Virus record (IMG/VR): IMGVR_UViG_3300018917_000004
Location: 1 to 52,415 of that record
Reading direction: 5' to 3' (one strand)
Origin: a virus
Taxonomy: Duplodnaviria; Caudoviricetes
DNA length: 52,415 bases
The notes under the pieces were generated by a model that was not told the origin of the DNA, did no database searches, and was given only the letters and a program-made list of their open reading frames with translations. Positions within the stretch are counted from its first letter, which is position 1, and each line of letters opens with the position of its first letter. Below, piece by piece: positions 1-52,415 of the stretch. A program made the translations under genes and the position numbers.

Positions 1-34
1 GTTAGCCGATAGCAACGCATCAGTTGAGATATCG
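1..34. repeat. 34-bp terminal direct repeat (circular overlap with 52335-52368)
   Basis: GTTAGCCGATAGCAACGCATCAGTTGAGATATCG is identical at both ends; joining them restores the helicase frame. Confidence 0.9.
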
Positions 35-1056
35 TTAGTCACGAAGAACATGGTGGTTGACGCTTTCACCTCTACTGCCGGTTGCCCTTTTTCCTCAACG
101 ACTAGTTTGTCATTACTAGCCAGTGTCAGAAAGCGCACCGCGTTACCACCTTTACTACCTCCCATAATGCTCTGAAGTGCCATCTTGTCCATATCAGACA
201 GGTATGACATATTACTCGACGCCACGGCCCCCCAACCAAACTTGGTGTTAAGGTCAGGGTTAATACTTCTCACCGCGTAGCCTAGCATTGACATCGCGTT
301 ATCTACCATGGCCAGTAAGAACGACTTACCGTTACGCCGGTCACCGAATAGCACAGCAAAATGTCGTGACTCAGGAGACCACCGGGGGCACTCGACGACA
401 CCACCCCATCTTGACGCCAACGCGGCCCTACCTAGCACCAGCATGAACGCTTCACGCTCAGCACTATCATGAAATGTGGGCAACAGGTCATCAACGGTGA
501 GCTTCCTAACGGCCTCAGGGAAAGTATGAGCCTCAGGTACAAAGCGATAATTACCGCTCTGCGATTTAACAGTAGTCTTGGTGTTATCTTCGATACCTGT
601 TGCCCTAGATAGCATGATGCTGCTAATGCGTGACTTACCGTTAGTCTTAGCCTCACCATTACTCAACTCGCCATACAGTGCGTATACTTTACTACAATAG
701 CTCTTGTTAGCTTTATTGGCTTGTAGTAAGGCCTCAGCGGCCTCTTGGCACTCAGTCATAAAGTACTTACCTGTAGGCGTCCCTGGGTCAATACGGCCCC
801 AATACCAGAACGTAGGGTCAAATTTCAACCCTAGTATATCTGGTTGCACCTTGTAGAACACTTCAAAGTTACCCCAAGCGCCACCGGGCCTTGGTACAAC
901 CTTATACTTCTGACCGCACGCCGCTATGAATATTTGGTCGAGTATGTCACTTTCAGACACCAATGTTAACATTGGCTCATCTTCGGTCAACTCATGCAAA
1001 TCAGGGGCCTCACGTTGCCCTCTATCATCAAATGCCTCTGTTTTATGACGGCCCAT
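1..1056 (-). CDS. SF3 (D5-like) DNA helicase, N-terminal part; continues across the circular junction into 52334..51462
   Basis: Not in the ORF track. Manual translation from ATG 1056 (MGRHKTEAF...) is open to base 1, with Walker A FGDRRNGKS and motif C FFVTND. An extended -10 TGcTATACT lies at ~1103-1111. Confidence 0.8.
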   Translation of the reverse strand, partial: MGRHKTEAFDDRGQREAPDLHELTEDEPMLTLVSESDILDQIFIAACGQKYKVVPRPGGAWGNFEVFYKVQPDILGLKFDPTFWYWGRIDPGTPTGKYFMTECQEAAEALLQANKANKSYCSKVYALYGELSNGEAKTNGKSRISSIMLSRATGIEDNTKTTVKSQSGNYRFVPEAHTFPEAVRKLTVDDLLPTFHDSAEREAFMLVLGRAALASRWGGVVECPRWSPESRHFAVLFGDRRNGKSFLLAMVDNAMSMLGYAVRSINPDLNTKFGWGAVASSNMSYLSDMDKMALQSIMGGSKGGNAVRFLTLASNDKLVVEEKGQPAVEVKASTTMFFVTNDISTDALLSAN

Positions 1057-1145
1057 AAGTTTCACCTTGAGCCTCTCGGCTCCTAATAGCTTTAGTTTCT
1101 CTAGTATAGCACAGTACGTCTCTGATGCATCCCACTCTCACCAAT

Positions 1146-3203: not shown

Positions 3204-3331
3204 AACAGTTATCTCAATTACATCTATTCAATAGTATAGCACAATGCTTCGCATTACTGCCACTAATATAACCGATATGATATTGTGATAACAATGTAAA
3301 TTTAGGTAATTAGAGCCGTGAGGCTCACAAG

Positions 3332-4017: not shown

Positions 4018-4662
4018 TTACCCTAGTGTACCCGTGCCGTCATATTTAAACACAGGCTCACCTAGGGTACTGTAACCCAGTAGGAAACCTTGATACACTA
4101 CTTTACCTGATACTACCGCCGCACTGTAATTCCTGATTGACCTCTGGGCCTCTAGCCACTTAGGGGAGAACCGGGCAACACTCAGAGGCACGCGGACGTA
4201 ATAGCGTAGCTTAGGTGTCCCAAATTTACCCGGTAGCGTAAAGGGTAACCTGAGGTCGGCATCTTGCCATAGTTGATATGGTATGGCCTGTATGTCTAAG
4301 ACGCGCCTAAGGGCCGCTAGGGTGCCTATGTGGTTGAATAGCCAGTAGGACGCCGCTATCATGCCCCGTTTAACATCAGGGTGCCACTGGGTATCCCAAT
4401 ACTCATCAGCTAACCCTACTAACCACGCTAGGAAATCTAGGCTACTATCGGCCGCAGTTTCAACTTGTAGTTCTTTGTAGTACTGTTGCAACAAGGTGCT
4501 AGTGGCGGTTAAGTTTTCATCAGCCCAAATGGTTAGCCAATCGGTAACCTCATTATTCTGATAGCCTTCCGCTGGTAACCGGGCATAAACAGGCCTACCA
4601 ATGGCCCATGCTTCCTTAGCCCCTGTTACCCCTTGGTCAATTAGCATAACCTTATTTACCAC
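4018..4662 (-). CDS. Baseplate wedge protein (P2 gpI-like)
   Basis: LDFLAWLVGL..WDTQW..KRGMI..IGTLAALRRVL pattern. Confidence 0.7.
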   Translation of the reverse strand: MVNKVMLIDQGVTGAKEAWAIGRPVYARLPAEGYQNNEVTDWLTIWADENLTATSTLLQQYYKELQVETAADSSLDFLAWLVGLADEYWDTQWHPDVKRGMIAASYWLFNHIGTLAALRRVLDIQAIPYQLWQDADLRLPFTLPGKFGTPKLRYYVRVPLSVARFSPKWLEAQRSIRNYSAAVVSGKVVYQGFLLGYSTLGEPVFKYDGTGTLG

Positions 4663-4752
4663 TTTGTTTACTATATAGCTATATAGTTAATAATTTGCCT
4701 TACGGTGCCTAAGAAAACTAAATGCACTTTAAGGTACACTCTGCTACCTTCG

Positions 4753-4845
4753 CACACACAGTGGTACCACTTTTTATGATTGAACTACAACCCGCACTGG
4801 CACTAGGTCTTACCGTTTACTACGTATGGTACCATATGGTACCAC
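4753..4845. repeat. GTGGTACCAC palindrome cluster A
   Basis: CACACACAGTGGTACCACTTTT shared with 19335-19356; tandem ATGGTACCA at 4826 and 4836. Confidence 0.75.
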
Positions 4846-4951
4846 GTATCAAAGTATACCCGGTATACGTAAGGGTAAATGAGGGCATTAAGAGACCGCG
4901 ATAACACCTGTACTACTTCATAACTATCAAGTAATATAAGGTATAAAAGTG

Positions 4952-4980
4952 AACCCCTGTATCATTGTGATAACAGGGGT
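4952..4980. terminator. Terminator-like hairpin containing TGTGATAACA
   Basis: ACCCCTGT...ACAGGGGT just downstream of the 16-aa ORF. Confidence 0.55.
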
Positions 4981-4996
4981 CATTGTGGGTTAGAGG

Positions 4997-5047
4997 TTAA
5001 TCACGGCCACTGCCGCGACTGTCGTCTTCAGGGTCAATGAATATCAT
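4997..5047 (-). CDS. 16-aa PatS/PatX-like peptide MIFIDPEDDSRGSGRD
   Basis: Manual translation, ATG 5047 to TAA 4997, ending RGSGR-D. Starts 11 nt after the upstream stop and is followed by a hairpin. Confidence 0.55.
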   Translation of the reverse strand: MIFIDPEDDSRGSGRD

Positions 5048-5058
5048 TGTGATAACAA

Positions 5059-5232
5059 CTAACTAAAGTGTGAATAGTACTTGACGTAACAACTGTCACA
5101 ATCACCGTTACCAGGGCAATCTAGACCTAAAGGGCAACTAGAACATACTAGCGTCCTGACAACACCCAACTGACTAACGGTACCCTTAGGGGCCGCGTGT
5201 CGTACTGTTTTCATTGAGGACTTGCGAGACAT
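5059..5232 (-). CDS. 57-aa Cys-rich small protein
   Basis: MSRKSSMKTVRHAAPKGTVSQLGVVRTLVCSSCPLGLDCPGNGDCDSCYVKYYSHFS; minus-strand TATAAT at ~5260-5265. Confidence 0.55.
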   Translation of the reverse strand: MSRKSSMKTVRHAAPKGTVSQLGVVRTLVCSSCPLGLDCPGNGDCDSCYVKYYSHFS

Positions 5233-5270
5233 AATAGTGACCTAAGAAACAATACTTTTATTATATACTA

Positions 5271-5293
5271 AAATACCCCGGTTTCCCAGGGTT
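5271..5293 (-). terminator. Intrinsic terminator
   Basis: Minus strand reads ACCCTGG-GAAA-CCGGGGT-ATTT. Confidence 0.6.
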
Positions 5294-5294
5294 C

Positions 5295-6240
5295 ATTAGG
5301 ATATTTAGTTCACTGCGAGGTTATTTGATGCCCTCTAGCCTTCCCTATTGCTTACTAGGCGTGTCAGTGACTCATCGTTGAGTCTAACAGAGACCGTTGG
5401 CTCATGATAGTCGAATATGGGTTCTCAGTTGCCCTACCTGCTCGGTTGTATAGTTTTCACTATTCGCTAGAAGTGGCGTTATTGACCTACGCTCACATTG
5501 AGCCGTTATTATTCACCCTAGCGCATCGTGGCTTTATGGGCCATTACTTCACCTTTTAGACCGTTAGTATCACCATCGCCCTACGTTGCACTACGGGCCT
5601 AAGTTCAAGATATTACTTCGAGTACTTAGAGCCGTTAGGCTCATTGGGGTCATAGCGTTGGCCGGTACTTCTTAAGAGCCGCGTGTTTCCTACGTTCTAT
5701 GATGCATCGCTGCATTGCACGGCTTGCCAAGGACATTTAAGTTATGCAAGTATTCTTATCTGGCATGGTAACCAAATATCAAACCGATTGCTACCAGTAC
5801 CTTAGAGGCCGTGACCACTCTGAGGTATTGATTGCTTCGGTGTGCCTTGTGCCCTTATTGGCATCAGTGCGACTGTTTCACTCTTGGGTAACTGTACTCA
5901 CTAAGGAGTCACGGTCACATGGTAGGTATAATTACTTACGAGTTAGTTAGGTCTCATCAGTGCGCCGGTTGGCTTACGTGTCAACACAACAGAGCCGGTT
6001 ATCACTGAATCTACTGAAAGCCTTAGGGTAATTAAGGCGGTTGGTGTTACTTCGTGTCTATAAGGGGTTATCGGTGAGCCTATTAGCGACCTATGCGAAC
6101 AGCTATCCTATCGTCAAAGCGTGGACTCTAGCAACTCGGTCAAGCTCGTGATGTTCCCTAGGCGACTCTAGGTAACGAGTGGTACTTGGTGCGACTGTGG
6201 CCTTCTGAGCTTCGAGTCTTGGTTAACCTTGTTTCCTCTC
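5295..6240 (+). ncRNA. Putative large structured RNA (~950 nt)
   Basis: No credible ORF; dense stems whose wobble pairs are G-U on the + strand. Strand assignment is tentative. Confidence 0.5.
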
Positions 6241-6248
6241 ATGTCACT

Positions 6249-6277
6249 AATATAACGCTATTCGCCCTAGTGTGCAA
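6249..6277 (-). promoter_or_regulatory. Sigma70-type promoter
   Basis: TTGCAC-17-TATATT pointing into the non-coding region. Confidence 0.65.
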
Positions 6278-6464
6278 CCTTTTAACCATCATTGTTAATT
6301 ATGTGTACGCAGGTTAGCTATAAAGCACTTTAATATAATTGTGATAACAAAGCTGCGCTTTAAGACCTAATTTAATTCATGTGATAATGTGATAACAAAA
6401 GTTAACTATATATAAATGAGGATAAAAGAGCCGTAAGGCTCATTGATAGAAACAGAGGTAAGCG

Positions 6465-7853
6465 ATGACCGTTATACAGTGCAAATTATATAGCAGTGGC
6501 AATGTGCCCTTAGTTGGCTATGTCGCCGTGACGCTTTCGGGCCGTGTGGTCAATACAGATACTAACAGCATCTTGGTGCCTCGTACCGATAAGTACCCCT
6601 TGGTAGCCGGTGCCGTCAATATCACCTTAGAGCCAACTGAAGATGACAGAACTACTTATAAATTCGAGATATACCATACGGAACAGGTGACCCCTGAGGC
6701 GACTGAGGACAACCCTACGCCATCGCCTATTACCGTTGAAAGCTTGGTTGACGCATTCTACGCAATGGTGCCTGATTACCTTACGCCTATCAAGTTAACT
6801 CAGCTAGCAAGGCAGACAGGTATCACTAGGGACTCAATGGATACTAGTTTAGTCACCGTGATTAAAAGGTTGATTGCTGACCCTGAGTTCTGGCAGGCCG
6901 CTAATACTAACCTGTTTCGCGTTAAAGGTGTGTATAATACAGCGTTCAGTTATATAAACGGGGACGTGGTTAACTTTGATGGCTCAGCGTGGATATGTGT
7001 GACACCTAACGCCATAACGGGCCAGAGTCCCCTACAATACCCAGGTGGTTGGCGGTTACTAGTAAGTAAAGGGGATACAGGGGCAGGGGTGACCGGCAAT
7101 ACAACTGCGTATGACAAGGATATTTGGGTAGATAATGTGGCACCGGGCCGCGTGGCCGTGAAGAATATTATTGAACAATTAGCCCGGAAGACTGACGTGG
7201 CACTGTTAGCCCCGATAGCCTCAGCTAACCTGGTGACGCCTAATCGCACAACTGACCCTTTGCTAACTGATAGGTCATCACAGATACCTACTACCAACTG
7301 GACACAAGCGCTGCTAGATGTCATGAGGAAGGCCTTGATACCAGTGGGGATGATAGGTGAATTCTTTAGTACAGCGGTGCCTACAGGATGGCTACAGTGT
7401 GATGGTAGGGTACTGGTTAGAGCAAGTTACCCGGCGCTATTCGCAGTACTCAGTACATCAGCTAATACTGGTGGCGAGTTAGCCACAGAGTTTAGGTTGC
7501 CTGATATGCGAGGTAGGGTATTGGTGGGCCTAGATGACATGACAACAGCACGAGGGGCCGCTAGTCGCATTGTACCGACTAATACCCTGGGGGCCTCTGG
7601 GGGCACACAGAAGCATCAATTAACTACCGCTGAGTTACCTAGCCACTCGCATAACCTATTCGGCTCAACTTACTATAACGGTGATTATTATGCCAGTGGC
7701 TCAGTGATAGCCGGTTACAACGCTAACAGAGGCCTTGTCAATAATAACCCTGGTGATACCTCAGCAGCTACAGTAACAACTGGTAGTAACACGGCTCATA
7801 ACATCATGCAACCATACATCAGTATTGTGTTTGCCATTTACACCGGTTTGTAA
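6465..7853 (+). CDS. Tail fibre protein with tail-collar domain
   Basis: Collar motif IPVGMIG..PTGWLQCDG..YPALFAVL..FRLPDMRGR, C-terminal AHNIMQPY, and a YxxGDVV..G..WIC module. Confidence 0.85.
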   Translation: MTVIQCKLYSSGNVPLVGYVAVTLSGRVVNTDTNSILVPRTDKYPLVAGAVNITLEPTEDDRTTYKFEIYHTEQVTPEATEDNPTPSPITVESLVDAFYAMVPDYLTPIKLTQLARQTGITRDSMDTSLVTVIKRLIADPEFWQAANTNLFRVKGVYNTAFSYINGDVVNFDGSAWICVTPNAITGQSPLQYPGGWRLLVSKGDTGAGVTGNTTAYDKDIWVDNVAPGRVAVKNIIEQLARKTDVALLAPIASANLVTPNRTTDPLLTDRSSQIPTTNWTQALLDVMRKALIPVGMIGEFFSTAVPTGWLQCDGRVLVRASYPALFAVLSTSANTGGELATEFRLPDMRGRVLVGLDDMTTARGAASRIVPTNTLGASGGTQKHQLTTAELPSHSHNLFGSTYYNGDYYASGSVIAGYNANRGLVNNNPGDTSAATVTTGSNTAHNIMQPYISIVFAIYTGL

Positions 7854-9417: not shown

Positions 9418-9810
9418 ATGGCATACTACATTGGTCAACAAACTGGCGCAACATTACCCGATGGCTCTTGGGAGTTCACAGGCTACGATTTACTGTATAA
9501 AATAGGTACCCCTGAGTGCCCTTGGGATGATAAAGACCTAGTGCCCCGGTGGTTCACAGTGTTTGAGAGTGCCGCCGATGAACCGTTATCAGCGATGGCC
9601 TGGAATAAGACTCAGGGCCTATATGTCAAACCAATGAGCGAAAGAGGCTACACATTAACACAATGTCCCTTTTACCCTATGTTACTAAGTTACTTCAGTA
9701 ACCGTGACGCAGTATTGGGTGTAATGTTCAAAGCGTTAGTTGAGGCCGCTAGTATCTCACCTAGCCCCGAATTGTATAAGGAATTTGAGAGGGTACTAAG
9801 TCAACCGTGA
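9418..9810 (+). CDS. Hypothetical protein (possible fibre assembly protein)
   Basis: 130-aa ORF directly after the fibre genes. Confidence 0.55.
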   Translation: MAYYIGQQTGATLPDGSWEFTGYDLLYKIGTPECPWDDKDLVPRWFTVFESAADEPLSAMAWNKTQGLYVKPMSERGYTLTQCPFYPMLLSYFSNRDAVLGVMFKALVEAASISPSPELYKEFERVLSQP

Positions 9811-9861
9811 GCCTTACGGCTCTAATCGTCTTATGTTATTTGTTATCACAACACTACACCG

Positions 9862-10813: not shown

Positions 10814-11473
10814 TTATGTACGTGGCAAGGTACAAGCAGAGGTTACCATTTTAACCTCAGTACCGTCATAGGCGTTATGGTGTTCAGAATCGGTATAAGT
10901 AGCGTAGTAGAGGAAGTCGAGGCCATTAAGTAACCAATACTGTGAGTGCATTATGTTACCGAGTTCTGTAAAGTAACCTAGTGTCCCATCAGGAAAGGCG
11001 TGTACCGGGTAAAACTCATTCGCCTCTTGCACCGCTGTATCATTGTTATCACAAAAGTACTGAGGGTTAATAGAGCAGGCGGGGGCAATGTAGGTAACTG
11101 TAACTTGTGAGCGTTCCTGATGCCCTTGTGCTTCCTCTAGGGTACGGTAGTAAACATAACTTAGAACCGAGTCATCCCAAGAGCCAAAGTAGATTACTGA
11201 GTTATCAGGACAAACGTGTACAGGGTAGAACTGATTAGCCCCGTCTAAATCAGGGGTTACCGTGACATCACAAGCCTCTGTGATATAGGCATCATTAGCC
11301 GTAATAGACTCGATATCATAAGTGACCTCTTGGGTCATGCGTGCCGCTTCAGTCAGTACTTGCTCGATGTCAGCTTTGAGCCAATGCATTCTAGGTTGTC
11401 TTACGCGACCTTGGTCAACTAGGTTACTGTAATGAAAGTTAAACTCTGTAATCATTTGCGCTTTGGTAACCAT
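10814..11473 (-). CDS. Hypothetical protein with two YPV..YF..PAC domains
   Basis: Start moved to ATG 11473, downstream of the promoter at 11504-11532; internal duplication. Confidence 0.7.
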   Translation of the reverse strand: MVTKAQMITEFNFHYSNLVDQGRVRQPRMHWLKADIEQVLTEAARMTQEVTYDIESITANDAYITEACDVTVTPDLDGANQFYPVHVCPDNSVIYFGSWDDSVLSYVYYRTLEEAQGHQERSQVTVTYIAPACSINPQYFCDNNDTAVQEANEFYPVHAFPDGTLGYFTELGNIMHSQYWLLNGLDFLYYATYTDSEHHNAYDGTEVKMVTSACTLPRT

Positions 11474-11548
11474 CAGGTGAACCTCTTTCTCTCTTACTTC
11501 TATAAGATAACACTCTAGGGCCCTGATTACCACCTATTTACCATCAAT

Positions 11549-12122: not shown

Positions 12123-12424
12123 GTTACATCTGGCCCACAATGGCCCAATAGTTTCTTTTGGAGGTAATCGGTAAGCTCTAAGGTAGAGCGGTAGTCAGTA
12201 CGGGTAGCCAGTTTAGCTAGCAGGGCATCAATGAGATTATACTCTACGGTATATTGTGGTAGTCTCAGGGCTAACTGCCAGAACTTAGCGCGATGAAGGG
12301 CCCGAAAGGCCTCATCATGAAGCCCTAGTTTTTCAAGGTGAGCTGCGAGGTCAACATAGGTTTTATAGCGTTGTTGGCAGTTGACCTGATAGCGTCGCGA
12401 GGTCTCAATGGGCTGTAAAGTCAT
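12119..12424 (-). CDS. Hypothetical helical protein
   Basis: 101-aa ORF overlapping both neighbours in the operon. Confidence 0.6.
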   Translation of the reverse strand: MTLQPIETSRRYQVNCQQRYKTYVDLAAHLEKLGLHDEAFRALHRAKFWQLALRLPQYTVEYNLIDALLAKLATRTDYRSTLELTDYLQKKLLGHCGPDVT

Positions 12425-13124
12425 GGCTGTTATCCTGTTCTAAATGGCAAGATATGAGACAAGCAGGGTAAGCTATGTTAGCCGGTACTGTCCAAGGCCC
12501 CTGTGAGCGATAGTCGAGTGCTTGGTCACGAGTGAAACAATGCACTAAGTCGTAACTGAGCCTAGCAGCAGTACGTGACTCAATAGGTACATGAGAATAA
12601 CTGGTGAAATAGTAGACACTATCATCCATAGTGTACGCAGGTAGCCATGTGGTGTATTGCGGGTCAGGTAGTTGACAATGTGGTGGTAACGGTAGGCTAC
12701 AAGCTGGCGCTGCTGTCGTCGGTGTCAGGTAGGAGACCTCAGGGCCATAAAGTAGTTCAACGTGGTTATTGAGGCTCATAGCTTCATTGTAGGTACTAAA
12801 GTTCACGTAATCATTGTTATGAAAGTGTATCACAGGGTACCCATACTGATGAAAGTACATATGGTAACGCCTAGGATACCACTGGTCACAGTTGTCAAGA
12901 TACTCACGAGGGATATTATGAGGCTCATGGTTGTCTTGAATGATGTCTATGGCTAACCGGCACGCATCAATGATAAATGATTTAGTCCAATAGGCCTTAG
13001 GGGTATGAAGTGCAATAGGCCAATCAATATCCTGAAGTCTCGGTAAAAGCTGGTTACGATAGATATCACACAATTCTTTCTTAGTAAACTGAGTTAACAT
13101 AGCGTCGAGTGATTGTATTCTCAT
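12405..13124 (-). CDS. Hypothetical protein with two PAC-type domains
   Basis: Start moved to ATG 13124, downstream of the promoter at 13160-13188; AAPACSL and YPACLI repeats. Confidence 0.7.
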   Translation of the reverse strand: MRIQSLDAMLTQFTKKELCDIYRNQLLPRLQDIDWPIALHTPKAYWTKSFIIDACRLAIDIIQDNHEPHNIPREYLDNCDQWYPRRYHMYFHQYGYPVIHFHNNDYVNFSTYNEAMSLNNHVELLYGPEVSYLTPTTAAPACSLPLPPHCQLPDPQYTTWLPAYTMDDSVYYFTSYSHVPIESRTAARLSYDLVHCFTRDQALDYRSQGPWTVPANIAYPACLISCHLEQDNSHDFTAH

Positions 13125-13248
13125 GTGGCCCTCTTTAGCGTCTGTTTCCTTACTTCTTAAATATAGCACCTAGTTATCCCTGTGAACTAAATAAGAGTTT
13201 AAGATAACTAATGAGTTTACAGCTAACCAATAAGAACAGGTAATCACG

Positions 13249-16342: not shown

Positions 16343-16384
16343 GTTACCGCCACTTAACTGACTGACCCTATATATCATTATGTG

Positions 16385-16560
16385 TTAAAGTACGTCACCG
16401 ATGGTAAATGATGAGCCTAACGGCTATAAATACCTGAAGGAAACTCAGGTAACTAACGCACGTAGTGCTAACAATAATTCTTTAAGGCCTTAGGGGGGCT
16501 ACCGAGTGCGACTGTGACCTAGTAGGTTTCGAGTCTTGGTTAACTGGGTACCCTTGAGGC
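16385..16560 (+). ncRNA. Structured intergenic RNA element (~180 nt)
   Basis: Consecutive hairpins; 39-nt element at 16506-16544 is shared with 6189-6227. Confidence 0.45.
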
Positions 16561-16605
16561 TTAACTATTTAAATATAGCACACAGTAAGCCCTGAGGGTA
16601 ACGTA

Positions 16606-16932
16606 ATGACCAGTAATAAGCAATACTTATTTAATGAAGCCGGTGATTTAGTGGTGCCTATGCTTTACACGTTAGGCTATGAGGCAGTGACGCTAAGGGA
16701 ACCTAAGGCGCGTGATATTAAAACGATGCGGCGTCATGCAATCGCGTATACAAAGCAGAATGCAGGGGCACCAATTGATGATATTACTACTTTGGAGATA
16801 GCGATAACCGTACTGTGTACTAGTCATGAGTTAACGGTAAAACAAATAGACGAGTGGGACGCAGAGGACATGATGGAGGTAGGCAGCGCCCTGAGTACCT
16901 TTCGTGTCTTTAAGAACTACATCAACGCATGA
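16606..16932 (+). CDS. Tail assembly chaperone
   Basis: VTLREPKARDI motif; lies between tube and tape measure. Confidence 0.75.
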   Translation: MTSNKQYLFNEAGDLVVPMLYTLGYEAVTLREPKARDIKTMRRHAIAYTKQNAGAPIDDITTLEIAITVLCTSHELTVKQIDEWDAEDMMEVGSALSTFRVFKNYINA

Positions 16933-19124: not shown

Positions 19125-19213
19125 TGTGAGCCTAACGGCCCTAAGTCACTTGTTATAATTGTTATCACAACGTATACTTAGATAACTTAAGTAGCATAGG
19201 GCACGCGTCGCAG

Positions 19214-22643: not shown

Positions 22644-22820
22644 CTACTCGTCTGAATCGTCGTAATCACGGTCAGACTGGGGGCCGCGTGTGCTATCGAG
22701 GTCGTTGTCAACATCGCCGCCACGACCGCCTTCATAAGCAAAGAAGGTACCCTCTTCATCACGAGCGTCGCGGTCTGCATTACCGGCCCCGTTACCATCG
22801 TCACTTCCTGAGTAAGTCAT
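22644..22820 (-). CDS. 58-aa very acidic early protein
   Basis: ATG 22820 follows the promoter TGGCAC-17-TATATT (22851-22879); Asp/Gly-rich. Confidence 0.65.
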   Translation of the reverse strand: MTYSGSDDGNGAGNADRDARDEEGTFFAYEGGRGGDVDNDLDSTRGPQSDRDYDDSDE

Positions 22821-23045
22821 GTGTGTAACCTCGTCTCTCTTTACTCTTCTAATATAACACCGTTTGCCCTGCTGTGCCATAATATTACATCAGCATAACT
22901 GATGAGTTTACAGGGCACTAATAAGAATAGTGGATACCAGGGGCACAGTGGTTAATGTTATAAACTATGCCTTGCAGGCCGCGTTAGTAAAGTACTATAC
23001 TAAATAGATATAACTTAATGCTACGTTATAGCGTACGCAGTACAC

Positions 23046-23580: not shown

Positions 23581-23606
23581 CTTGTGGGACTATAGAGCCT
23601 AATGGC

Positions 23607-23852
23607 TCACTCGGCAGTTAGGGCGGCTACGGCCTGATTGAGACAATAGTGCCACTGTGACACATCAGCACCTGAAGCCTTTAGGGCCACAAAAGCGCCA
23701 TCGTATAAACCATACCACATCAGGTCGCACTGTTCAGAATATAGCGCCATACGTACACAGAGAGTCATTGTCTCTCTAGCATACAACTTAGGTAGCCGTA
23801 TCCCAGCGTTATAACCTGTGACATAGTTCACGTCAGAACGATTCGGTATCAT
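23607..23852 (-). CDS. Hypothetical protein
   Basis: 81-aa ORF. Confidence 0.6.
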   Translation of the reverse strand: MIPNRSDVNYVTGYNAGIRLPKLYARETMTLCVRMALYSEQCDLMWYGLYDGAFVALKASGADVSQWHYCLNQAVAALTAE

Positions 23853-39446: not shown

Positions 39447-39479
39447 GGCACTGCGTGCGCTAAGTACACTATGAAAACT

Positions 39480-39510
39480 AAATACCCTGTTATCACAAGG
39501 ACACAGGGTG
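39480..39510. terminator. Terminator containing TGTTATCACA
   Basis: Same family as 27483-27517. Confidence 0.6.
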
Positions 39511-39561
39511 CTTAGTGTTATTTAGTTGTTAGTTAATTAAAGGCCGCTCACCTCCCTAGTG

Positions 39562-39708
39562 TTACTTAGTTTCCTTAGTGGGTTTTGGTTGGCCCTCAGG
39601 CACTACCGGGGTATTGGTTGGCTTTGAGATACGAACGTCCTCCTGTTGAATCTGGTCTAGCACGCTTTGTACTCGGTCAGCTTGTGAATCAGTGGCCACT
39701 ATTGTCAT
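39562..39708 (-). CDS. 48-aa hypothetical protein
   Basis: AAGGAG RBS; MTIVATDSQADRVQ... Confidence 0.55.
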   Translation of the reverse strand: MTIVATDSQADRVQSVLDQIQQEDVRISKPTNTPVVPEGQPKPTKETK

Positions 39709-39809
39709 TAGCTCCTTCTTGTTGACTAGGGTGTACAGGGTGACCTAATGGTCAACGGTAGTTATATTACTACCTGCTTTCTCATAATGTGACTTTGTTA
39801 TAACAGAGG

Positions 39810-40500
39810 CATTGTGAGCCTCAGGGCCCCAAGTTGACTTGCACAACCTCTAATTACTCCTTCTGGCATCTTGACTACAATGTAGGTTTATTAGCTGAAC
39901 TGAGTTCTTAGGAAACTATCGGGGCCGTGAGTGAGACCTTAGGGTACTAAATGGCTTAGTAGGCGCATAGAGTACCCTCGTATCTCTATAATGTTAACTA
40001 GCTTTCACCGCCTCTACTCGGTTAGTTCTAGTTGACATATGGTAACTTAATTACTTAGTAGCTTTGCTTGCCTCTGTGTATCTCAGGTGGTCTCTGTTTA
40101 TCATCAGCGGTAGAGGTTGACACCAATAACTCACTTTGACTTACTTTGACACTCGTTGACTCACTTGGCTATTTTAGCTTTCAGTTACGTTTGTTTGAAT
40201 CAGGTGAAATAAGGGAACCTGGCAACCCTAATATACTTATTAGGCTATATTAGACCCTTAGGCGTTTTGAGTAGCCGCCTTTCCTACCTAGTCCTTTAGG
40301 TGAACTAGAACCTTTATGACCCTAAGGTCAGTTGGTTTTGCCACGTCCCTTGATTCAAGTGGCACTTCCTAGTCTTAATGCTGGGTACCAGTTATCAGGT
40401 GTGGCGTGAGGTTTCCAGGGTTTCTACGGCTTCCACATTTTACTGCGGCTTCCAGACTATCTCGTTTAAACGGCGTCTGAGCTTTTCGCTTTCACCCTCT
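39810..40500 (+). ncRNA. Putative second large structured RNA (~700 nt)
   Basis: No ORF of 60 aa or more in any frame; many stems with + strand G-U pairs. Confidence 0.45.
40128..40167. repeat. Four degenerate 10-bp tandem repeats (GACTCACTTT-like)
   Basis: aactcacttt gacttacttt gacactcgtt gactcacttg. Confidence 0.65.
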
Positions 40501-40517
40501 CTGTCCCTCACTTCTCT

Positions 40518-40546
40518 AATATATCGCGCTTAGCCCTGAGTGTCAA
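40518..40546 (-). promoter_or_regulatory. Near-consensus sigma70 promoter
   Basis: TTGACA-17-TATATT pointing into the non-coding region. Confidence 0.8.
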
Positions 40547-40554
40547 CCATTTAA

Positions 40555-40785
40555 TCATCGAGTTTTATCTATGGTCACCTGTTCAGCCATAGACTTAGCA
40601 TCGAAACCAAAGCGCGCTAGAGCCTCACGCTTTAACAGACGCTTAATGTAAGCTCCGAGTTCATTACCGTCACTATCAGCAGCCAAAGCCCTGTATAACA
40701 TTAGCTCATTAGGTGTAAACAGCACCTCAACAACTTCCTTCTTAGCACGGTATTTCTGATTAGATTCAGGGTTAGCGCGTCCCAT
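40555..40785 (-). CDS. Small RHH-like DNA-binding protein
   Basis: ATG 40785 with AGGAG RBS; VEVLFTPNE..RALA..LGAYIKRLLKRE. Confidence 0.55.
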   Translation of the reverse strand: MGRANPESNQKYRAKKEVVEVLFTPNELMLYRALAADSDGNELGAYIKRLLKREALARFGFDAKSMAEQVTIDKTR

Positions 40786-42861: not shown

Positions 42862-45327
42862 TTGTTAAGCACTATGGCAACTGAAAAACCAACACCACCG
42901 GAGGCCCCTAAGGACGCCATTACTACAGTGACCTTAGAGGGCTTTGATGAGCAATGGTCTACAGGGCAACGATTGATTGATGTCTATGTAGTGCTAGGTA
43001 TGAACGATAAGGCCTCTAATTGCCAAGTGGTAATAGCTGACCCTGATTACGCTACGGCCGCTAAGTTAATCAATCATACCTTGACTTCCGGGGGCATACA
43101 GGCCCTTGAGGGTTCAAGTGTGCCTAACGGCACTTCACAGCCTAGTACACCTAGTGGGCCGAGCGCTAGCTCTGGGTTTAACTTAACGACCAATACCGCA
43201 CCGCCGCCTAAGGGTAATATGCAGCCCGGTTGGAATAGTGAGCAAGAGTTCATCGATGAAATGATAAGAAAAGCTCATGCATTTGGCTTAACCGATAAGG
43301 CCCAGTTAGCTTACATGTTGGCGACGTGTAAAATCGAAAACTCAATGGGTGCTGATTTGGTCGAGAATACAAACGGTGCGTACTTAGAGGGCCGTGCTGA
43401 CCTGGGGAACACTCAACCCGGCGATGGCTACAAGTATCGAGGTAGGGGCCTTGTACAGCTCACAGGGCGTGCTGTGTATCGTGATGTAGGCAGAGTTCTC
43501 AGTTTACCATTAGAGGCCACGCCGGACGTTGCAGCCTACCCTGATGTAGCGTTCTTGATTATGTTCACCCATGCCAAGCAGGGCCTACCAATTGCCAACA
43601 GGAAACCACTTAGCACATATTTAGACGAAAGTAAAGGTAAATTCGATTGGTTTAATGCGAGACGCACTATAAACGGCACGGCCAACGCTGCTAAAATAGG
43701 GGCCGATGCTGAGCAGTGGTACAAACGGATGCCTGAGTTGATAGCTAGGGCCATGGGTGGCGCACCGGCCGCAACTAAGGTACCACCGGCTACTAGTGCC
43801 GCTATAGCAGAAGGTGTCCCTGTTGGCTCTACGGTGCCGCCTGTGAAAGGTAGTAAGCTAATCGTGAAGCATCAGGAGTATGAGTATATATACTACCATC
43901 AGGGCACGACGATAAAAGATGATGGTAACTTGGTGCTAAAGGGAACAGGGGTGAGATATGAGCTATCACGGCGCAAGAGAAACAAGACAGAATCGTCGCT
44001 ATCACTGAAAGCGTTGGCGACTAAGGTTGCTACGGCCCACGGGTGCAAATTAGAGTGGCTAGCTGACTTTGATGTGCCCTATACCTTTCTAGACCAAACA
44101 GGAATCAGTGACTATGAGTTACTTAAGCGTGAGTGTGCTGCCGCTGGTCTCTTTATCACTGACAGTTCATCAAAGCCTCATGAGCGTCCACCGGCCTCTA
44201 GTCAGCCCTCATCGAAACCAAGCACCGGCGATATTGCTAGTTTAACAGGTGAACTCATAACGACTTCGAGTAATGCCGGGGCCACTGCGACTAACACAAT
44301 TGTAATAAAATCATTAAGAAATATTAAGGATACCGATTTAGTCATAGAGAAAGGTGTAAACCTGATTAGCTTCGAGATTAGCGATGAGCCACTAGATGGT
44401 AATAAGACCGTACCTGACGCTGGTTCATCACTGCAACAGAGTGAAGTTAAGACCCAAATAGACCCTATGGCCGCTAAGTTAGTACAGACTAAACCTGATG
44501 TTGATAAGGCGGCTGATAAGGCGACAACAGGGAACCAAGCTAAGACCACAACGGCCCAAGTGGCCCCTGGTGCTGAAATGATACAAAGCACGAACGCCGC
44601 TAGAACCAAGAGGGTAAAAGGGCTACCGAGTAAGTTCACTATTGTTACCACAAAGGAAGTGTTGGCACTAGAGCCACTTAGCGGTATCAGGACACGAGGG
44701 CTGCCGGGGGTATTGAGTAGAGTGTGGTTGCTCGATACAATCAAACATTACCTCATGGACGGTAAGACAGAGTTAGGCTGTTGTAGCCCTGTTGAAGTAC
44801 TTGATAACGCACCGCCGGCCGCAGTTACCCCCGGTACCACGACACCTACCGGGCCGCTACCACCGCCTGTTAGTGGCTTTGTAATGCCCCTAGGTGGCAT
44901 TTGTACCTCACCTTTCGGCCAGAGAAACGGTAGACTTCATGCAGGTTGGGACATACAAAGCCCTAAAGGGTACCAAACTAAAATACAAGGTGAAGCGGTG
45001 TGTGCCAGTGCCGCAGGTAAAGTCATATTCGCCGCTAATAATAATGATGGCTACGGGGCCCGTGTTGACATAGCGCACGATGGTGGTAAAGTAACTCGCT
45101 ATGCACACCTTTACAGCATAAGTGTGAAAGTAGGCGACATGGTGCAACAGTTACAGCCTATTGGTATTGAGGGCGGCAGTGGTAACAAAGGCCTAAAGAG
45201 TTACGCTGTACACTTACACTTCGAGATACGAGACGGGGCAGGCTTTGGCGGTAATGGCGTTCATGACCCTAAGAAATTCTTACCTTCTCTGAGTCGCGGT
45301 GCTACCGTTAAACTCGGTTCTAAATGA
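42862..45327 (+). CDS. Baseplate hub (gpD-like) fused to GH19 lysozyme and M23 peptidase
   Basis: [23 protein letters not shown] (GH19); [11 protein letters not shown] (hub); HAGWDI, TRYAHL, HLHFEIR (M23). Confidence 0.85.
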
Positions 45328-45354
45328 GCCTCACGGCTCTAATTACCTAGTGAC

Positions 45355-51461: not shown

Positions 51462-52368
51462 TTAGAACTGAGGGCTATAGGACTCAGTTAGGGCTGAGCT
51501 AAGGTCACCGGGCCGGTTAGAGGCATTGCTGATAATGAAGGTAATGATTGAATCAAGGGCCGGTGGGAGACCCTCAGGGTACAATGATTCAATCTGGGGT
51601 GCATAGCGGTTAACCATGTACTCTAGTTTCATGAGTTCTTCATTATAGGCCCCTGAGTAGTGTGAGGGTGCCTTAGGGTATTGCCAATGTCGATTGGTGG
51701 TTAAAGTGCCTACCAGTTTTTCAAATTTATTCACCAGTGGGCTAGTGTTATCCATTTTGCACTTTTTGAATGTTTCAATGAATGACTCACGTAGTCTGTG
51801 GTCAACACCTTCTATCGCTGTAATCTTGAGGCCCGGTATGCTCTCTAGTTCCCGGCAGAAATGGGAGGCGACTGCATTACCTAGTATATGCCACGTCCAC
51901 GGTGTCTTTCGGGCTACGTTCATATACTCTTGTCTTACTTTACCTTCCTTAGGTGCCTTACACGCTATAGCGGCTGCTAGGGCCCTCATAGAGACCTCTG
52001 CTAGCTCACGAGGGTATGCAATATCACTTGGTTGATACAAACGGCCCTTGATATCATCCATGACATTATGGTACTTGTTATCACGTCGGTTATAATCATA
52101 ATAGCCGTCATCGTCAGACCAAGTGAACCCTGATACCTCTAAGTATCTGTCAACGGCCATACGTATCAACCAACACGTCAACAGGTGATATTGTTCATCA
52201 AAGTGGATGTCTTCTAGAACGTTTTCCCACATGGTTTTCAGGTTAGCGTTAGAGACATCAGGTAAGTTATACTGCTCTGAGATTTCCTCTTTACTCTTGG
52301 TACGCAGGAAGCACGCACGGTCACGCATACCCTGGTTAGCCGATAGCAACGCATCAGTTGAGATATCG
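51462..52368 (-). CDS. SF3 helicase C-terminal part (continuation of 1..1056; ~642 aa in total)
   Basis: In frame through the 34-bp overlap: ...FFVTNDISTDALLSANQGMRDRACFL (Arg finger). The ORF-track N-terminus MVRRKHARSRIPWLA comes from the fold-back. Confidence 0.8.
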
Positions 52369-52415
52369 GCTAACCAGGGTATGCGTGACCGTGCGTGCTT
52401 CCTGCGTACCAAGAG
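52294..52415. other. 52-bp perfect inverted repeat at contig end (fold-back artefact)
   Basis: 52364-52415 is the exact reverse complement of 52294-52345. Confidence 0.8.

What the first reader, a model, noticed from the sequence alone, without database searches (positions are those of the whole stretch)
5295..6240. About 950-nt ORF-free, densely base-paired region: candidate large phage ncRNA
Seen: near-continuous stems, e.g. CAGTACCTTAGAG/CTCTGAGGTATTG (~5795-5830), GTAGGTA/TACTTAC, GACTGT/ACGGTC, GCCGGTT/AGCCGGT, TCATAG/CTATGA. Nearly all non-Watson-Crick pairs I spotted are G-U on the + strand, so + is probably the folded strand. Yet a minus-strand promoter (6249-6277) and terminator (5271-5293) bracket the region exactly, which suggests a full-length antisense transcript. 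GTGCGACTGT recurs at 5867 and 6189. Established: large phage-associated RNAs such as GOLLD and ROOL fall in this size range. I do not recognise this one.
Basis: partly seen in the sequence, partly recalled or inferred. Interest (0 to 1): 0.78.

Follow-up and report, generated by a model that had tools for sequence, protein, structure and literature searches.

The report
Gene-free transcribed spacer in a cyanophage
A 1.2-kb stretch of a soil-crust phage genome really has no genes and looks like a unit copied into untranslated RNA from the bottom strand, but it folds no better than scrambled sequence, so it is probably not a large ornate RNA.

Summary
The window is a complete 52,415-bp virus record, cyanophage-like, with no close relative I could fetch. 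The gap 5233-6464 is truly non-coding. All three stop codons occur in all six frames. Coding potential is below the 5th percentile of genes in every window. Six of six read-through frames hit nothing in Pfam, PHROGs or 50,697 phage records.

The claim of dense base-pairing fails. The MFE has as many pairs and G-U pairs as shuffles. Full-length z is -1.8 to -3.0 on + and -0.75 to -0.95 on -, inside the range of coding controls (+1.9 to -2.5). Only the 13-bp hairpin at 5795-5830 stands out, weakly (p about 0.035). Rfam gives nothing.

The minus-strand bracket holds up better. The promoter 6249-6277 belongs to a seven-member promoter family; four members drive minus-strand genes. The region holds four minus-oriented hairpin terminators. 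A second ORF-free unit (39447-40554) has the same promoter and terminator layout, and a short third one lies at 16.5 kb.

Best reading (0.45): a 0.6-0.97-kb, A-rich, untranslated minus-strand RNA of unknown role. Rivals: DNA-level control or origin region, plus-strand structured RNA, gene relic. No expression or conservation data could be obtained.

The parts
5233..6464 (.). ORF-free gap r1, between the small - ORF 5059-5232 and the + tail-fibre gene 6465-7853
   Evidence: stops in all six frames; coding score of all 22 windows is below the 5th percentile of genes; no protein similarity in 6 of 6 frames.
6249..6277 (-). Sigma-70-type promoter TTGCAC (6277-6272), 17-nt spacer, TATATT (6254-6249); predicted start about 6242-6244
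   Evidence: 9 of 12 consensus positions. Sequence read.
6236..6292 (-). Conserved promoter block, one of seven paralogous copies in the genome
   Evidence: BLAST to 40507-40559: 80% over 54 nt, E=3e-5. nhmmer profile E=4e-12. Alignments.
6189..6227 (-). Module A, the 5' part of the predicted RNA (from about +15); paralogue at 16506-16544
   Evidence: 85% over 39 nt, E=2.4e-6. Duplex prediction.
6428..6441 (-). GAGCC-UUAC-GGCUC hairpin followed by UUUUAU: a minus-strand terminator just upstream of the promoter
5629..5642 (-). GAGCC-UAAC-GGCUC hairpin of the phage's gene-end type in minus orientation; possible partial terminator giving an RNA of about 0.6 kb
   Evidence: Its 57-nt surroundings match reverse-complemented 16411-16468 at 78%. 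The terminator scan did not call it because it lacks a U run.
5390..5403 (-). Variant hairpin GAGCC-AAC-GGUCUC in minus orientation
   Evidence: one substitution from the pattern.
5275..5292 (-). Terminator ACCCUGG-GAAA-CCGGGGU followed by AUUUUAGUAU; predicted 3' end of the full-length RNA of about 0.97 kb
   Evidence: 7 pairs, 5 of them G-C.
5795..5830 (+). 13-bp hairpin with a 10-nt loop and two G-U pairs on +; the only locally exceptional fold
   Evidence: 3.5% of 200 shuffles reach 13 bp. (window z -4.3 on +, -2.0 on -).
39447..40554 (-). r2, a second ORF-free unit with the same layout. Promoter TTGACA-17-TATATT at 40546-40518; terminator hairpin 39500-39485 followed by UAUUUAGUUU
   Evidence: (11 of 12 consensus positions).
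16400..16616 (-). r3, a short third unit between the tail tube and chaperone genes: promoter block 16559-16616, module A copy 16506-16544, hairpins at 16413-16452
   Evidence: E=1.9e-8; 167 nt, z=-2.48. The consensus scan calls neither a promoter nor a terminator here.

Best explanation
r1 is a stand-alone, non-coding transcription unit on the minus strand. Host sigma-70 RNA polymerase starts at about 6242-6244 from TTGCAC-17-TATATT. It runs leftward through a short conserved 5' module (6227-6189). It then passes two GAGCC hairpins of the phage's gene-end type (5642-5629 and 5403-5390). It stops at the GAAA-loop hairpin with U tract at 5292-5275. The product would be an A-rich RNA of 0.6-0.97 kb with no translatable ORF and no more secondary structure than chance. 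It belongs with two other ORF-less units that carry the same promoter: r2 (about 1.0 kb) and r3 (about 0.15 kb).

Shown by computation: absence of coding capacity, the promoter family, the terminator hairpins, and the strand composition. Inferred: that the RNA is made at all, and what it does.

My committed guess for function has low confidence, about 0.15-0.2 of the total. The 5' module acts by base-pairing. Together with the r3 antisense RNA it would pair with the + strand leader between the tail tube and chaperone/tape-measure genes (16506-16544). The long body would serve as a transcribed insulator between the leftward replication genes and the rightward tail-fibre genes.
For: (1) Non-coding. 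There is also no Shine-Dalgarno-preceded ORF of 12 codons or more on the - strand.

(2) The promoter is one of a family. r1, r2 and r3 blocks score E=4e-12, 1e-13 and 2e-8 with their own profile. Four further matches (E 5.7e-4 to 0.039) are all on the - strand, at the 5' ends of - strand ORFs 10814-11533, 22644-22880, 12405-13169 and 1264-2052. In three of these the block is followed about 40 nt later by GAGG and an in-frame ATG. This block therefore behaves as a working promoter elsewhere in the genome.

(3) GAGCC-N4-GGCTC hairpins: 13 matches with at most one substitution. At least five lie within 20 nt of the stop codon of a gene on the strand where they read TGAGCC (9809, 19128 and 45326 on +; 3313 and 23595 on -). 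The three copies in r1 all read in that orientation on the - strand. The scan flags the - strand hairpins at 6441-6428 and 5292-5275 as terminators.

(4) r2 repeats the architecture with an 11-of-12 consensus promoter and a - strand terminator, but has no other sequence similarity to r1.

(5) Strand composition. AT skew of the - strand is +0.19 in r1 and +0.24 in r2. Gene sense strands average +0.06, with a maximum of +0.23 among 25 genes.

(6) The best trans partner of the first 69 nt of the predicted RNA is the + strand at 16481-16560: -74.4 kcal/mol, against a background of -26.4 +/- 6.5 and a next best of -54.5.
Against: No expression data exist. No homologue of the region could be fetched, so there is no test of conservation or covariation. 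The r1 promoter matches only 9 of 12 consensus positions. Promoter-like sites in 4600-6800 are not enriched (6 found, 4.5 +/- 2.1 in shuffles). The hairpins at 5642-5629 and 5403-5390 lack U tracts and were not called as terminators. r3 has no scan-called promoter or terminator. The strongest local fold, 5795-5830, is better on the + strand, and + has the lower full-length z. The trans pairing follows automatically from paralogy and is not independent evidence. The promoter-plus-leader copies could be duplication relics without function.
Confidence: 0.45

Rival explanations
1. The DNA, not an RNA product, is what matters. r1 would be the control or origin region at the point where leftward (replication) and rightward (tail) transcription diverge. 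The minus-strand promoter would serve to activate or prime replication, or simply be one of many promoters.
For: The global minimum of cumulative GC skew lies at 5594, inside r1. Genes diverge here. The primase, exonuclease and DNA polymerase A genes lie 2-9 kb to the left across the record's ends. AT-rich stretches carrying the over-represented TGTGATAA(CA) motif flank the core at 6330-6400. Transcription-primed origins in T4 and T7 are recalled from memory, not from any call.
Against: The r1 core is not AT-rich (GC 0.45-0.49). It has no iterons, tandem repeats or internal repeats. GC skew also tracks gene orientation across this genome, so the minimum may only mark the switch in transcription direction. 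This reading does not explain four minus-oriented terminator hairpins, or the same layout in r2.
Confidence: 0.22
2. One reading: a large, highly structured RNA on the + strand, in the manner of GOLLD or ROOL.
For: Tool z-score of -3.04 on + against -0.95 on -, with 0 of 20 shuffles as stable. The 13-bp hairpin and its neighbours give window z of -2.8 and -4.3 on +.
Against: My 30 shuffles gave z=-1.78. Coding controls reach -2.5. Pair and G-U counts equal those of shuffles. Rfam gave 0 of 4227 families at gathering score and only four sub-threshold hits at E 1.1-7.5. No convincing + strand promoter lies to the left, only two 9-of-12 matches. There are no tRNA genes. The + strand is T-rich, the opposite of the gene sense strands in this phage.
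Confidence: 0.1
3. Relic of one to three dead minus-strand genes. The promoter, leader and gene-end hairpins survive while the reading frames have decayed. Alternatively, it is a spacer seeded by duplicated promoter and terminator cassettes, with no present function.
For: The r1 and r3 leaders align with the leader, Shine-Dalgarno site and first codons of gene 22644-22880. They read AAG where that gene has its ATG. Hairpins that elsewhere abut stop codons sit about 600 and 850 nt downstream of the promoter.
Against: No residual coding signal: the best-of-six-frames score averages -0.149 against +0.217 for genes, and 22 of 22 windows fall below the genes' 5th percentile. There are 0 Pfam or PHROG families and 0 tblastn hits in 6 of 6 frames. 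Punctuation that is intact beside fully erased frames argues for selection on the punctuation. TGAGCC hairpins also occur away from ORF ends, at 16413 and 39816.
Confidence: 0.13

Closest known systems
[quoted passage not shown] 2020, PMC7567579; I read passages only)
   Same: A space of about 1 kb without ORFs in a lytic phage, giving or predicted to give an RNA of about 0.8-1 kb. No tRNA genes nearby. Function unknown.
   Different: The ICP1 RNA is shown by RNA-seq and is the most abundant phage transcript. Here nothing is known about expression. I did not compare the sequences.
GOLLD and ROOL large ornate RNAs (Rfam families; described in passages of PMC7567579 and PMC9241854; PMC12286853 seen only as a search listing and abstract start)
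   Same: Size range and phage association.
   Different: No covariance-model match. No neighbouring tRNA genes. No excess of predicted structure.
Small phage antisense and regulatory RNAs such as lambda OOP, P22 sar and P1 c4 (recalled from memory; no call)
   Same: Host-polymerase promoter, intrinsic terminator, untranslated product, proposed action by base-pairing on phage mRNAs. r3 fits this kind best.
   Different: Those RNAs are about 70-80 nt and overlap their targets in cis. r1 is 0.6-1 kb and overlaps no gene.
Transcription-activated or R-loop phage replication origins such as T7 primary origin and T4 oriF/oriG (recalled from memory; no call)
   Same: A promoter firing into non-coding DNA close to the replication genes. 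The skew minimum lies here.
   Different: No AT-rich unwinding element or iterons in the r1 core. A battery of terminators follows the promoter.

Membership tests
GOLLD / ROOL / other Rfam large RNAs (OLE, HEARO, raiA, group I/II introns, ribozymes) | Match to the family covariance model at or above the gathering score | tested here: not met
   0 matches over the whole window at gathering score. At E<=10 over 5000-6600 there were only four hits of 16-22 bits, against cut-offs of 39-73 bits, all to unrelated small-RNA families.
GOLLD / ROOL | Frequent location beside tRNA genes in phage or prophage DNA (as stated in the PMC7567579 passage) | tested here: not met
   ARAGORN finds 0 tRNA or tmRNA genes in the 52,415-bp genome.
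Structured non-coding RNA (generic) | Folding energy clearly below dinucleotide shuffles and below the genomic background | tested here: not met
   The + strand z of -1.8 to -3.0 lies inside the range of coding controls (+1.9 to -2.5). Pair counts equal those of shuffles.
Structured non-coding RNA (generic) | Covarying base pairs across homologues | not testable with these tools
   No homologous DNA was found. The two-sequence comparison of r1 and r3 gives one compensatory pair on each strand, which is uninformative.
Independent non-coding transcription unit (phage lncRNA/sRNA gene) | Promoter and intrinsic terminator on one strand, with no ORF between them | tested here: met
   Promoter. Terminators. 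No ORF.
Independent non-coding transcription unit (phage lncRNA/sRNA gene) | A transcript is detected | not testable with these tools
   Only three DNA runs of one study hold the sequence.
Replication origin | Iterons or initiator boxes beside an AT-rich unwinding element | tested here: not met
   The r1 core has no repeats and its GC is 0.45-0.49. The skew minimum at 5594 is the only supporting feature.
Pseudogene / decayed gene | Residual codon bias, or protein similarity when read through the stops | tested here: not met
   (22 of 22 windows below the genes' 5th percentile). (0 families in 6 of 6 frames). (no tblastn match in 6 of 6 frames).
Diversity-generating retroelement template / CRISPR array / ToxI-like repeat RNA | A repeat shared with the tail-fibre gene, or tandem repeats | tested here: not met
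   r1 against the whole genome gives only short promoter, terminator and motif matches. There are no tandem repeats in r1.

The most novel reading that the evidence does not exclude
r1, r2 and r3 form an undescribed set of promoter-sharing, untranslated phage RNAs: two of about 1 kb and one of about 0.15 kb. They would be made early by host polymerase and would control late tail-gene expression in trans and in cis through the shared 5' module. The long, A-rich, poorly structured bodies would have a function of their own, for example as a decoy or sponge for a host RNA-binding factor or defence system, or as an R-loop primer.
Probability: 0.15. Interest if true: 0.6.

Novelty: new member of a known kind. 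Interest (0 to 1): 0.35.

Why it matters
ORF-less spaces of about 1 kb that give abundant RNAs of unknown function have been seen in a few well-studied phages: ICP1 (PMC7567579 passages) and phage K (PMC9241854 passages). Here an uncultured soil-crust cyanophage carries two such spaces, each with a clear promoter/terminator bracket, plus a short paralogue. If they are transcribed they would give a compact system for asking what long untranslated phage RNAs do. The check also has practical value. It shows that visible stems and G-U asymmetry in a T-rich kilobase are fully explained by composition, so similar first-stage calls should be discounted unless z-scores beat controls from the same genome.

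Tried and rejected
**Known RNA families and recoding**
- Rfam scans gave nothing.
- There are no tRNA or tmRNA genes.
- Alternative genetic codes are rejected: all three stops occur in all six frames.

**Homologous DNA**
- blastn of r1 and r2 against 50,697 phage records gave no match.
- Relatives were sought through flanking or conserved proteins. The tail fibre gave 32 IMG/VR loci, but only for the C-terminal collar domain at 30-42% identity, so they were useless for the spacer.
- The gpI-like protein, TerL, P0002 and P0003 gave none in viral contigs. The exonuclease gave none in metagenome contigs.
- DNA patterns taken from module A, the motif hairpin and the 13-bp hairpin gave 0 hits in viral contigs, metagenome contigs and genome contigs.
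- The search for homologous proteins found two relatives of the tail-fibre N-terminus in Logan assemblies only: 57% identity on an 11.8-kb contig and 38% on a 50.2-kb contig.

**Sequencing runs**
- Three DNA runs of one biocrust study were listed; no RNA holder was listed.
- Laying their contigs showed identical sequence across r1, with no variants to use. One of these runs may be the source of the record.

**Other checks**
I repeated it with stops read as X; all results were negative.
- A small-peptide reading of the 5' module (24- and 23-codon ORFs in r1 and r2) is rejected, because r3 has no start codon in that frame (my reading).
- The excess of stop trinucleotides on the - strand (84 against 59.2 +/- 4.6) is not special. 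Ordinary intergenic regions show it too (213 against 183 +/- 8).
- The nearest sequenced phage, Leptolyngbya phage Lbo402-yong5 (TerL 39% identity), has no gap of this size in its annotation.
- Paper searches for cyanophage non-coding regions found nothing specific (listings only). Supplementary files were not consulted.

Full report
**What the window is.** The window is a whole virus record of 52,415 bp, rated 100% complete. Its terminase is most like those of phages of filamentous cyanobacteria: Leptolyngbya phage Lbo402-yong5 at 39%, and Microcystis, Anabaena and Nostoc phages at 31-34%. It encodes a myovirus-type tail: sheath, tube, baseplate J, a gpI-like protein and a collar-domain fibre. 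It also encodes a DNA polymerase A, primase and exonuclease module. The sequence is held only by three DNA runs of one biocrust study, one of which may be the source of the record. Those runs are identical over the region.

**The observation.** The gap 5233-6464 lies between a doubtful 57-codon - strand ORF (5059-5232, coding score -0.118) and the + strand tail-fibre gene 6465-7853.
- It holds only five + strand ORFs of 36-68 aa and no - strand ORF of 30 aa or more.
- All three stop codons occur in all six frames.
- A codon-usage score trained on 26 long genes puts every one of 22 windows below the 5th percentile of real genes. The best-of-six-frames mean is -0.149, against +0.217 for genes.
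- Read through with X at stops, 6 of 6 frames match no PHROG or Pfam family at E<=0.1. They also match nothing in 50,697 phage records by tblastn at E<=1e-3.

The region is therefore non-coding and is not a detectable pseudogene.

**The stems.**
- The MFE of the + strand has 304 pairs, 46 of them G-U. Shuffles have 302 pairs and 48.7 G-U.
- The - strand has 278 pairs with 22 G-U, against 276 and 23.5 in shuffles.
- The + strand is T-rich (31% T, 21% A), and this alone produces the G-U asymmetry.
- Full-length z-scores are -3.04 on + and -0.95 on - (20 shuffles each). On 5275-6243 they are -1.78 and -0.75 (30 shuffles).
- Six coding segments of equal length give z from +1.88 to -2.50.
- In 150-nt windows r1 is not significantly below the rest of the genome: p=0.09 on + and 0.46 on - (290 of 697 windows sampled).
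- Only 5701-5925 stands out on +. Its 13-bp hairpin at 5795-5830 is matched in 3.5% of shuffles, and hairpins as long occur inside coding genes.
- Rfam gives no match, and the genome has no tRNA genes.

**What the surroundings add.** The crude gene map revealed a second ORF-free stretch, r2 (39447-40554).
- r1 and r2 share only a block of about 50 nt at their right ends: 80% identity, E about 1e-5.
- On the - strand this block reads as a sigma-70 promoter. In r2 it is TTGACA-17-TATATT, 11 of 12 consensus positions. In r1 it is TTGCAC-17-TATATT.
- A third copy lies at 16559-16616, in the 263-nt gap between the tail tube and chaperone genes.
- A profile of the three finds four more copies. All are on the - strand, at the 5' ends of - strand ORFs.
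- In three of those, the block is followed about 40 nt later by GAGG and an in-frame ATG.

The block is thus a recurrent, apparently working promoter. Four copies drive genes and three (r1, r2, r3) are followed by no ORF.

**Terminators.** GAGCC-N4-GGCTC hairpins are this phage's usual gene-end signal. At least five of 13 matches abut the stop codon of a gene on the strand where they read TGAGCC. r1 holds three of them, all in minus orientation (6441-6428, 5642-5629, 5403-5390). It also holds the GAAA-loop terminator at 5292-5275. r2 ends in a - strand hairpin followed by a U tract at 39500-39485.

**Strand composition.** The - strands of r1 and r2 are A-rich, with AT skew +0.19 and +0.24. This matches, and somewhat exceeds, the sense strands of the phage's genes (mean +0.06). 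No Shine-Dalgarno-preceded ORF of 12 codons or more exists on the - strand of r1.

**Best explanation.** These features fit a - strand, untranslated transcription unit. It would give an RNA of about 0.97 kb (6243 to 5275), with possible shorter forms ending near 5625 and 5386. The RNA has no notable secondary structure.

Its first 40-55 nt (module A, 6227-6189) are 85% identical to the start of the r3 unit. As a result, its best predicted partner elsewhere in the genome is the + strand leader at 16481-16560, at -74 kcal/mol against a background of -26 +/- 6.5.

From this I infer, with low confidence, an antisense-type action on late tail-gene mRNA. The long body would act as a transcribed insulator at the boundary between the leftward replication genes and the rightward tail-fibre genes. 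None of this is shown. There are no RNA data, and no homologue could be retrieved for a conservation test.

**Rivals.**
- *DNA-level control or origin region.* The cumulative GC-skew minimum is at 5594 and the replication genes are near. However, the core is not AT-rich and has no iterons, and skew follows gene orientation in this genome.
It is weakened by all the folding controls above.
- *Relic of dead genes.* The r1 and r3 leaders align with the leader and first codons of gene 22644-22880 but lack its ATG. However, there is no residual coding signal, and the punctuation is intact.

**Comparison with known systems.** The closest described case is the ORF-less space of about 1 kb in phage ICP1, which yields an RNA of about 800 nt of unknown function (PMC7567579, passages read). 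Phage K lncRNAs are similar (PMC9241854, passages read). r1 is not a member of GOLLD, ROOL or any other Rfam family. I file it as a possible new member of the loosely defined kind 'phage long non-coding transcripts from ORF-less spaces'. It is unproven.

**Verdict.** The ORF-free region and the minus-strand bracket are real, and they recur in a second and a third locus. The 'densely base-paired large ncRNA' reading is not supported. Interest is moderate to low (0.35) until expression or conservation is shown. The two contigs encoding P0002 and P0003 are the quickest route to a decisive test.

Noticed in passing
window 39447-40554: Second ORF-free stretch of about 1.1 kb (r2). It has an 11-of-12 consensus minus-strand promoter at 40546-40518 and a minus-strand terminator at 39500-39485. 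It is T-rich on + like r1. Full-length fold z is about -2.9 on both strands.
   Followed up: partly
window 16343-16605: A 263-nt gap between the tail tube and tail chaperone genes. It holds a third copy of the minus-strand promoter block and of module A: a candidate antisense sRNA of about 0.15 kb. A 167-nt piece folds at z=-2.48, with 1 of 200 shuffles as stable.
   Followed up: partly
whole window, e.g. 4966-4975, 6340-6349, 6388-6397: The decamer TGTGATAACA, or its complement, occurs 74 times with at most one mismatch, against 4.6 +/- 2.2 expected. Copies lie in intergenic and coding DNA. It is often doubled (TGTGATAATGTGATAACA) or sits inside CCCC...GGGG palindromic hairpins at gene boundaries. 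It may be a binding site for an unknown regulator. From memory it resembles Fur-box or CRP-type half-sites; I did not test this.
   Followed up: partly
window 9809-9822, 19128-19141, 45326-45339, 3313-3326, 23595-23608: GAGCC-N4-GGCTC hairpins sit at or within 20 nt of stop codons, and in some the TGA stop is part of the element. Within about 20-30 nt they are followed by the TGTTATCACA motif. This looks like a stereotyped gene-end cassette.
   Followed up: partly
window 40129-40166: Four TTGAC(A/T) repeats with a period of about 10 bp (TRF period 10, 3.8 copies), followed by a T-rich stretch, inside r2. This is iteron-like and is a candidate replication origin or protein-binding array.
   Followed up: no
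window 39562-39708 (-): A 48-codon ORF near the 3' end of the predicted r2 transcript. It lies in the only part of r2 with a positive coding score (0.11-0.16), so it may be a real small gene.
   Followed up: no
window 1-1065 and 51462-52415 (-): The primase-like ORF runs off both ends of the record. The genome is therefore circularly permuted or circular in the assembly, and the replication module is contiguous across the ends.
   Followed up: no
window 4651-5100: The stretch left of r1 has the strongest local folds of the neighbourhood on the minus strand (150-nt window z down to -5.3). These are due to motif-bearing palindromic hairpins. The ORFs called there (4722-4904 on +, 5059-5232 on -) have poor coding scores, so the non-coding zone may extend from 4663 to 6464.
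   Followed up: partly
proteins P0002 and P0003: The only relatives of the tail-fibre N-terminal part, at 57% and 38% identity, are in Logan assemblies, on contigs of 11.8 kb and 50.2 kb. These are probably related phages that could serve as comparators.
   Followed up: partly
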